From Eledone cirrhosa (Eukaryota): a stretch of 64,000 nucleotides of DNA. Every line of letters starts with the position of its first letter. Position 1 is the stretch's first letter. Shown here one piece after another: positions 10,315-10,885 of the stretch. Below the pieces are notes generated by a model. It made no database searches, was not told the origin of the DNA, and worked only from the letters and a program-made list of their open reading frames with translations. The stretch is from contig OZ024742.1 in the NCBI GenBank assembly GCA_964016885.1, positions 16,864,001 to 16,928,000 of the forward strand, given 5' to 3'. The position numbers and the translations under genes were made by a program.

Positions 10315-10885
10315 AATTAAGTTAAAGTGTACATCTACATATGTATACGGAAGTATTAGTATGCATATAAATACACACATGTATACATATGTACATGTAC
10401 TAAGTTTTTCACTAGACACTTTACAGTGAGTGTCAGCTAGTCTGTAAGTAACCACACAGACGGACCGGGTTTTAGAGTCATACGAGTTTTCATAGAAAAA
10501 GCATATAACGATATGTGCTTTTACAATTCTCCAGAGAAGCCGGAAGATGGGTAAATATTGCTGATGAGATGTAATAACATCGAAACTAGTCCAATATTCC
10601 TGCCTGGCCCTCTGGAGAATAGAGGAAATGTGTTTCCTTGAAAACTCGTATGACTCTAAAACCCGGTCCGTCTGTGTGGTTACATACAGACTAGCTGACA
10701 CTCACTGTAAAGTGTCTAGTGAAAAACTTAGTACATGTACATATGTATACATGTGTGTATTTATATGCATACTAATACTTCCGTATACATATGTAGATGT
10801 ACACTTTAACTTAATTGTTTAAGCGTCAGTCATACAAAAGTGAGTTAGAAGCGAAACGAAATTTAATTTCGTTTCGTTATTTGTT
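10315..10885 (+). mobile_element. Non-coding fold-back element (PLE solo pseudo-LTR or retrozyme-like) inserted in (TA)n
   Basis: 10315-10492 is a near-perfect inverted copy of 10639-10816; hammerhead in the loop; (TA)n on both sides. Confidence 0.7.
10554..10598 (+). ncRNA. Type-I minimal hammerhead ribozyme, fully canonical
   Basis: AATATTG-CTGATGA-GATGT(AATA)ACATC-GAAA-CTAG-TC^-CAATATT: perfect stem I (7 bp), stem II (5 bp), palindromic stem III ACTAGT; distal pairing ATTCTCCAGAG 10526-10536 with CTCTGGAGAAT 10610-10620. Confidence 0.92.

What the first reader, a model, noticed from the sequence alone, without database searches (positions are those of the whole stretch)
10315..10885. Perfect hammerhead ribozyme in the loop of a 178-bp fold-back, non-coding element
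Seen: AATATTG CTGATGA GATGT-AATA-ACATC GAAA CTAG TC^ CAATATT, with every core base canonical, a palindromic stem III (ACTAGT) and an extended distal helix. It lies between near-identical inverted arms (I saw one mismatch) and the whole unit sits in (TA)n with no ORF. Established: minimal type-I hammerheads with palindromic stem III occur in PLE pseudo-LTRs and retrozymes and can cleave as dimers. Inference: a young solo pseudo-LTR or non-autonomous retrozyme of a family distinct from the other PLEs here.
Basis: partly seen in the sequence, partly recalled or inferred. Interest (0 to 1): 0.8.

Follow-up and report, generated by a model that had tools for sequence, protein, structure and literature searches.

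The report
Hammerhead retrozyme with Penelope-type two-ended insertions
The ribozyme motif and fold-back are real and belong to one insertion of a young, 469-base non-coding mobile repeat whose copies sit head-to-head and end at two fixed sites, one per arm, a pattern that likely records how the enzyme of a Penelope-like jumping gene copies such RNAs into DNA from both ends of a cut.

Summary
Observation confirmed: a complete type I hammerhead motif (10554-10598) between 178-bp arms with one mismatch, in (TA)n. It is not a solo pseudo-LTR and not a minimal hammerhead. It is a 0.85-unit daughter of a 469-bp tandem non-LTR retrozyme (1,397 exact ribozyme copies, 2,193 tail-to-(TA)n junctions). 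The stems covary across sister families (11 of 18 pairs). The fold-back is an insertion scar, not part of the RNA. Of 103 loci read, 80 have two head-to-head arms. In 73 of those both arms stop at fixed sites about 70 nt apart, always one at site A and one at site B, never AA or BB. Both arms share one haplotype, half exceed one unit, and in 18 of 71 neither arm could be a copy of the other. This is the known Penelope 'tail on one end' signature, here on a retrozyme. Likely mechanism: a Penelope-type RT primes both cut DNA ends at two sites of one circular or multimeric RNA. Cleavage, circles and the partner element are untested or not found. The scan noted similar Penelope-type tandem inserts in other genomes.

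The parts
10272..10314 (.). (TA)n target microsatellite, left flank (preceded by (CT)n 10223-10272)
10315..10492 (-). Inverted arm: 0.38 unit (unit positions m48-m225), 3' end at site A joined to (TA)n
10487..10492 (.). 5'-5' junction of the two arms, 6-nt microhomology TTTTCA/TGAAAA
10487..10886 (+). Direct arm: 0.85 unit (m365 across the cleavage site to m295), 3' end at site B joined to (TA)n; lacks m296-m364, so this copy has one ribozyme only
10526..10620 (+). Extended helix that carries the ribozyme (predicted), including a distal stem I with a UA bulge at 10552-10553
10554..10598 (+). Type I hammerhead motif: stem I, CUGAUGA, stem II, GAAA, palindromic helix III ACUAGU, predicted cleavage after C10591
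10817..10886 (+). 'Tail' between site A (m225-231) and site B (m295-299), present on this arm only; holds a 13-bp hairpin at 10850-10878
10887..10957 (.). (TA)n target microsatellite, right flank

Best explanation
This is one insertion of a 469-bp tandem, hammerhead-bearing non-coding repeat (a non-LTR retrozyme), and its fold-back likely formed when the reverse transcriptase/GIY-YIG protein of a Penelope-like element cut AT-rich DNA on both strands and primed both DNA ends on the same retrozyme RNA, one at site A and one at site B. Shown in sequence: tandem unit, copy numbers, covarying ribozyme stems, two fixed 3' ends, head-to-head arms, one A plus one B per locus, shared haplotype of the two arms, arms that run through the ribozyme site for more than one unit, 9-16-nt target duplications where the target is unique, and 5'-5' joints with a few nt of overlap or filler. 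Inferred: arrays are transcribed; tandem ribozymes cut as dimers through the ACUAGU palindrome; monomers are ligated to circles that are stable because a lone helix III cannot form; the RT (predicted by others to be a dimer) binds around the tail hairpin, starts at A with one DNA end and at B with the other, runs round the circle or along a multimer, and the two cDNA ends are joined by end-joining repair. Some arrays later grew locally (higher-order repeats; one spans about 66 kb). The window copy has a single ribozyme and is likely a dead end.
For: 469-bp period arrays. 1,397 exact ribozyme 38-mers; 2,193 site-B/(TA)n junctions. Covariation in 11 of 18 pairs, 93% of cells paired, against 34-52% for slid controls. 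Of 103 loci: 73 A+B, 0 AA, 0 BB, 7 with the second arm ending elsewhere, 17 single-armed, 6 unresolved. Among loci picked by one end only: 27 of 30 B-picked loci with a resolved second arm end at A and none at B; 16 of 18 A-picked end at B and none at A. Same A+B pairing in 8 of 8 two-armed sister-family loci with both ends in view. Cross-arm divergence 0.7% against 3.3% between loci, n = 30, p 4e-9; variants private to one locus lie on both arms in 6 of 30. 107 of 142 arms cross the cleavage junction and 72 of 142 exceed one unit; 5' ends are not enriched there (7 of 142, 6 expected); in 18 of 71 loci neither arm is contained in the other. A and B are not the best TA-microhomology sites of the unit. 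Circular monomer folds at -155 kcal/mol, z -10.9, with stems I and II formed. A second data set shows the same B junction (run X3, 12 contigs). Literature: PLE copies often carry an inverted 5'-truncated copy and a tail on one end (PMC8557442, PMC3846280, passages); a purified PLE protein cuts and extends both strands, prefers AT-rich DNA and starts at two adjacent internal sites (PMC11167929, main text).
Against: No autonomous partner was found: none of 90 PLE loci shares the unit or its tail as a terminal repeat. No test of cleavage or circles was possible; in the 2026 preprint only 1 of 9 predicted retrozyme dimers cleaved in vitro, and in PMC11167929 ribozyme cleavage was not needed for insertion. 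A circle cannot be told from a homogeneous linear multimer by these data. Some unit-level variants are shared out of register (L097), and one array switches from an old to a young haplotype (L099). The tail here is about 70 nt, longer than the 30-40 nt usually given for PLEs. One locus of an autonomous PLE family shows two short ends (L223), so the pairing may not be universal. Eight of the 142 arms are under 30 nt (two of them 9 nt or less), and the classes were read by eye.
Confidence: 0.72

Rival explanations
1. Same element and PLE partner, but the inverted arm comes from one priming event followed by snap-back or self-priming (on the nascent cDNA, or on an antisense RNA as proposed by Arkhipova and colleagues), with the endonuclease trimming one end at A and the other at B.
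For: Explains the shared haplotype of both arms. Six of 71 loci start both arms at the same position, as a hairpin would. Self-priming is proposed in PMC3846280 and endonuclease resolution of the tail in PMC8557442 (passages).
Against: Snap-back on the first cDNA needs one arm to lie within the other; 18 of 71 loci fail this. Second arms of about 20 nt beside arms of up to 2.5 kb (L243, L259) would need a precise long jump. In vitro both strands are extended on a sense template (PMC11167929). The antisense-RNA form with later trimming is not excluded.
Confidence: 0.15
2. The unit is the pseudo-LTR of an unseen autonomous PLE; the copies are truncated ends, and tandems arose afterwards by local unequal crossing-over (the route favoured in the 2026 preprint).
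For: PLE-type tail, inversion and TA targets; higher-order repeats in the large arrays show local growth; only a small sample of more than 40,000 PLE candidate sites was checked.
Against: No shared non-unit sequence was seen at the junctions of the 103 loci; sequence past site B runs back into the ribozyme, not into an ORF. Multi-unit arms occur on both sides of many small insertions, in phase with A and B. Not found at PLE termini in 90 loci.
Confidence: 0.08
3. A MITE or fold-back DNA transposon with terminal inverted repeats that happens to carry a hammerhead-like motif, or a plain satellite with chance inversions.
For: 178-bp near-perfect arms and a TA target at this locus.
Against: Arm lengths range from under 10 nt to many units and the two ends differ by a fixed tail; no mixed locus among those read is tail-to-tail within one insertion; duplications are 9-16 nt, not TA; ribozyme stems covary.
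Confidence: 0.03

Closest known systems
Metazoan non-LTR retrozymes (Cervera & de la Pena 2020, PMC7229834; Li, Clavereau & Pollet 2026, bioRxiv 10.64898/2026.07.22.740005)
   Same: Non-coding tandem units with one type I hammerhead each, low GC, strongly self-paired circle, weak palindromic helix III as in the newt/axolotl type, duplications longer than 4 bp, PLE-rich host genome.
   Different: 469 bp, slightly above the 150-450 bp of the 2020 paper but inside the 51-972 bp of the preprint. Those papers infer the PLE link from co-occurrence and pLTR similarity; their main texts do not mention inverted arms or a tail (term look-ups; supplements not seen). Circles and cleavage were shown there for some families and are untested here.
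Penelope-like element insertion structure: inverted 5'-truncated pLTR and one-sided tail (PMC3846280, PMC8557442); PAc two-site initiation (PMC11167929)
   Same: Head-to-head inverted copy, two 3' ends separated by a tail, tail on one end, AT-rich or (TA)n targets, duplications of about 9-12 bp.
   Different: No ORF; tail about 70 nt instead of 30-40; the papers say 'often' or 'optional', while here 73 of 73 loci with two defined ends pair one of each; no sequence link to a PLE was found.
Minimal hammerheads of PLE pseudo-LTRs (Cervera & de la Pena 2014, PMC4209133)
   Same: Type I topology, intact core, predicted dimer cleavage.
   Different: min-HHRs have helix II of 7-8 bp, helix I of 4-5 bp and need no helix III loop; this motif has helix II of 5 bp, helix I of 6-7 bp plus a distal helix, and a CUAG loop, like that paper's 'canonical' metazoan type.
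L1 twin priming (recalled; search listing only)
   Same: Both DNA ends prime on one RNA and give an inversion inside a target duplication.
   Different: In L1 the second priming is internal at a variable place and the two pieces hardly overlap (recalled); here both starts are fixed, adjacent, and the arms overlap, which needs a repeated or circular template or strand displacement.
Non-autonomous Chlamys PLEs such as MRC1 (PMC8557442, passage)
   Same: Non-coding, multicopy head-to-tail insertions moved in trans by a PLE.
   Different: They resemble their autonomous partners at the 3' end, and Chlamys elements mostly lack canonical hammerheads; no such partner was found here.

Membership tests
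Non-LTR retrozyme | Head-to-tail tandem of a few hundred bp | tested here: met
   469-bp period arrays
Non-LTR retrozyme | Complete type I hammerhead motif in consecutive units | tested here: met
   (186 of 193 matched junction motifs intact); the window copy itself has only one
Non-LTR retrozyme | No protein coding capacity | tested here: met
   longest ATG frame 64 aa on the tandem; no Pfam hit for the window frame
Non-LTR retrozyme | Target duplications longer than 4 bp when present | tested here: met
   9-16 nt at L070, L087, L095, L100; masked by (TA)n at most of the 22 loci scored
Non-LTR retrozyme | No LTR, PBS or PPT | tested here: inconclusive
   no LTR-internal-LTR layout in any locus read; PBS and PPT were not searched
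Non-LTR retrozyme | Self-cleavage of the transcript | not testable with these tools
   needs in vitro transcription
Non-LTR retrozyme | Expressed as linear and circular monomer RNA | not testable with these tools
   no run on record as RNA was offered
PLE-mobilised sequence (works like) | Inverted 5'-truncated copy, head-to-head | tested here: met
   80 of 97 resolved loci have two arms
PLE-mobilised sequence (works like) | Two 3' ends with a tail on one end | tested here: met
   73 of 73 loci with two defined ends; tail about 70 nt
PLE-mobilised sequence (works like) | Shared terminal sequence with an autonomous PLE | tested here: inconclusive
   none in 90 sampled PLE loci, a small part of the genome's PLE families
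Solo pseudo-LTR with min-HHR | Minimal architecture (helix II 7-8 bp, helix I 4-5 bp) | tested here: not met
   against PMC4209133
Solo pseudo-LTR with min-HHR | Other copies flank an RT/GIY-YIG ORF | tested here: not met
   no such junction among 103 family loci or 90 PLE loci; sample only
MITE / fold-back DNA transposon | Fixed, equal terminal inverted repeats | tested here: not met
   variable arms, unequal ends

The most novel reading that the evidence does not exclude
A dimeric Penelope-type retrotransposase loads once on a circular retrozyme RNA and makes an obligately asymmetric double start: one protomer primes one DNA end at site A and the other primes the second end at site B on either side of the tail hairpin, and both then roll round the circle. 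This would be genomic proof that PLEs mobilise animal retrozymes, would explain the long-unexplained inverted arm and one-sided tail of PLEs in one step, and would show ready-made arrays seeding satellites tens of kilobases long.
Probability: 0.45. Interest if true: 0.78.

Novelty: new member of a known kind. Interest (0 to 1): 0.52.

Why it matters
The element class is known, and so is the PLE insertion pattern. What this family adds is a countable link between them. The retrozyme papers leave the mobilising enzyme and the origin of the tandems open, and PLE papers leave open how the inverted arm and the one-sided tail form. Here thousands of young, ORF-free insertions record a strict rule (one A end, one B end, one template haplotype, arms that need not contain each other) that narrows the mechanism. 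It can be tested directly by single-molecule sequencing in the existing in vitro PLE system. It also shows retrozyme insertions as seeds of satellite arrays.

Tried and rejected
Expression: no RNA holder listed; the runs laid were contigs of unrecorded kind. One run holds a 499-nt contig that closes on itself (one unit plus overlap), which a DNA tandem gives as well as a circle, so it is no evidence for a circular RNA. Partner search: the two Hydra-like PLE families of the window and 30 GIY-YIG loci share no terminal sequence with the unit; the hits there were separate sister-family retrozyme insertions; short shared words were judged chance. In one search the strand of several loci was mis-set, so its end listings were not counted. 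Selection on the ribozyme within the family: 2 of 73 locus-fixed variant columns fall in its 43 columns (p 0.04), but loci were picked by an exact ribozyme match and unit-private variants are depleted too (12 against 21), so this was rejected as biased. Genome-wide A versus B counts are not comparable: the A pattern fits only the young subfamily and is counted several times on the reverse strand. Pile-up of 5' ends at the cleavage site: none; the nine apparent 'm1' ends were an artefact of a length filter and were corrected. Circle versus linear multimer: not resolved by unit-level variants. Rfam gathering search: no hammerhead. Rows left out of the locus tally: L073 (duplicate of L072), L062 (no element), L099 (chimeric, single arm), and the older nested insertion in L080.

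Full report
Observation. The arms 10315-10492 and 10639-10816 differ at one base, and (TA)n lies on both sides. Rfam gives no hammerhead at its curated score but a local Hammerhead_HH9 match at E 1.3e-6.

The element. A search of the own genome (3.0 Gb) returned near-identical copies in arrays of period 469. The 38-nt ribozyme core occurs 1,397 times exactly, the reversed control 0 times. I numbered a natural unit (L007:193-661) from the first base after the predicted cut (m1). The window copy is a direct arm m365-m295 (400 nt) and an inverted arm m48-m225 (178 nt), joined 5' to 5' over a 6-nt microhomology. It lacks 69 nt of the unit and has one ribozyme, so it could not release a monomer. 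The tandem has no ORF over 64 aa from ATG. A looser pattern found 13,896 related ribozymes of sister families of about 430-500 bp, and a 310-bp family turned up beside them.

The ribozyme. Fifteen representative natural sequences, picked from the 67 distinct ones found plus three, align without gaps and with an almost invariant core. Eleven of 18 pairs change on both sides and 93% of cells pair, against 34-52% when partners are slid; the helix III palindrome is kept even where its centre changes. The sequences are related, so the shuffle counts are not probabilities. A lone helix III costs about 6 kcal/mol (-0.5 against -6.4 without it), while the palindrome can pair with a second copy, as described for canonical metazoan type I ribozymes that work as dimers (PMC4209133, first part read). 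Helix lengths fit that paper's canonical type, not its minimal type. The circular monomer is predicted at -155 kcal/mol, z -10.9 against 60 shuffles, with stems I and II formed. Activity itself is untested.

The fold-back is an insertion scar. I read 103 loci: 43 picked by the ribozyme or a variant word, 40 picked only by a site-B junction and 20 only by a site-A junction. Most lie on contig C1. Outer ends fall at site A (m225-231) or site B (m295-299), which flank a tail of about 70 nt with a 13-bp hairpin. Result: 73 loci have one A arm and one B arm head-to-head, none has AA or BB, 7 have a second arm that ends elsewhere, 17 are single-armed and 6 run out of the fetched stretch. With independent choice at even odds, 73 of 73 would have p about 1e-22. 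Caveats: classes were read by eye; eight arms are under 30 nt; the B end of L080 stops at m287 against an older insertion; for the array at C1:127.66 Mb the A end comes from a coordinate and the 7 kb before it were not read. Sister families show A+B in 8 of 8 loci with both ends in view. A separate sequencing run shows the B junction in 12 contigs. A and B are not the best TA-matching places in the unit, so the sites look structural. Where the target is unique, duplications of 9-16 nt are seen (L070, L087, L095, L100).

Template. The two arms of a locus differ by 0.7% and arms of different loci by 3.3% (30 of 32 two-armed loci had enough overlap); 6 of the 30 carry variants on both arms that no other sampled locus has, including a 4-nt deletion in L092. 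So both arms come from one haplotype, most simply one molecule. Of 142 arms, 107 cross the cleavage site and 72 are longer than a unit, and 5' ends do not pile up at the cut. A cut linear monomer could not template them; a circle or an uncut multimer could. In 18 of 71 loci neither arm fits inside the other, which a snap-back on the first cDNA cannot give. Against a clean picture: L097 shares unit-level variants out of register, L099 switches haplotype within an array, and large arrays carry higher-order repeats from later local growth. The array at C1:95.62-95.69 Mb still has an A end on the left and a short B arm on the right (its middle 40 kb was not read).

Mechanism. Shown: the anatomy and counts above. 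From the literature: PLE copies often have an inverted truncated copy and a 30-40-bp tail on one end (PMC8557442 and PMC3846280, passages); a purified PLE protein cuts and extends both strands at AT-rich DNA, starts at two adjacent internal RNA sites that match the tail, is predicted to be a dimer, and did not need ribozyme cleavage (PMC11167929, main text and part of methods). Inferred: such a protein acts in trans on the retrozyme RNA, primes one DNA end at A and the other at B, and repair joins the two cDNA ends. I put this at 0.72, the circle as template at about 0.6 within it, and self-priming with trimming at 0.15.

Partner. The genome is rich in PLEs (over 40,000 first-look candidates for one RT; GIY-YIG hits). 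None of 90 PLE loci carries the unit or its tail as a terminal repeat. One autonomous family in the window also has a short and a long 3' end and head-to-head pairs (short plus long in L221 and L224, two short ends in L223). Clade names used here (Hydra-like, Neptune-like) are recalled from motifs and were not tested by a tree.

Comparison and novelty. It works like, and on all sequence-testable features is, a non-LTR retrozyme (PMC7229834, parts 2-4 of 6 read; bioRxiv 10.64898/2026.07.22.740005, parts 1-3 of 5 read). Both propose PLEs as the mobiliser without insertion-junction evidence in their main texts: look-ups for inverted, tail and head-to-head found nothing relevant. Six library searches listed no paper that reports a strict one-site-per-end rule or this signature on retrozymes. 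The library lacks most subscription papers, including the older PLE reviews, and I saw no supplements, which may show such structures. PMC9977147 (passages) added nothing beyond non-autonomous PLE pairs. Earlier notes of this scan describe Penelope-type tandem inserts in other genomes; they are unchecked and came after my reading.

Verdict. Real feature; a new family of a known kind, with an unusually clean mechanistic signature. Interest 0.52.

Noticed in passing
window 24873-25353: A second, older retrozyme of a sister family: minus arm ending at site B in (TA)n, short plus piece joined directly to a 5'-truncated PLE fragment (25355 to about 27300). May be a nested or a two-template insertion.
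   Followed up: partly
window 19270-23750 (-): Broken PLE with about 750-bp pseudo-LTRs and minimal hammerheads at 23097 and 19549; further minimal hammerhead-like motifs at 6964 (+), 18993 (+), 39575 (-).
   Followed up: partly
window 59943-60021: Small fold-back with a hammerhead core (CTGATGA...GAAAC) resembling the 310-bp family, in (TA)n.
   Followed up: no
window 7855-7905: Tail fragment of the sister retrozyme family beside (TA)n.
   Followed up: no
window 10960-11066: AT-rich hairpin element right after the right (TA)n; similar sequence flanks L090.
   Followed up: no
window 7247-7317, 15762-15819, 26586-26760: tRNA-like matches and a short repeat that recurs as an insert in many PLE loci; probably tRNA-derived SINEs.
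   Followed up: no
G000:C1:95620986-95687200 (L096, L163-L165): About 66-kb satellite of the 469-bp unit with 6-7-unit higher-order repeats that still keeps the A end and the short inverted B arm of a single insertion.
   Followed up: partly
L099 / L001 (G000:C9:25.94 Mb): One array runs from sister-family units through an old haplotype into the young haplotype, in phase; template switch or gene conversion.
   Followed up: no
L173:3150-4320: A 310-bp retrozyme family with helix III palindrome ACGCGT, head-to-head, inserted into the internal TA tract of a sister-family unit.
   Followed up: partly
window 9349-10199 (-), 29400-30866, 45952-52984, 55399-58674, 60740-61417: LINE reverse transcriptase fragments and a mariner-type transposase fragment.
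   Followed up: no
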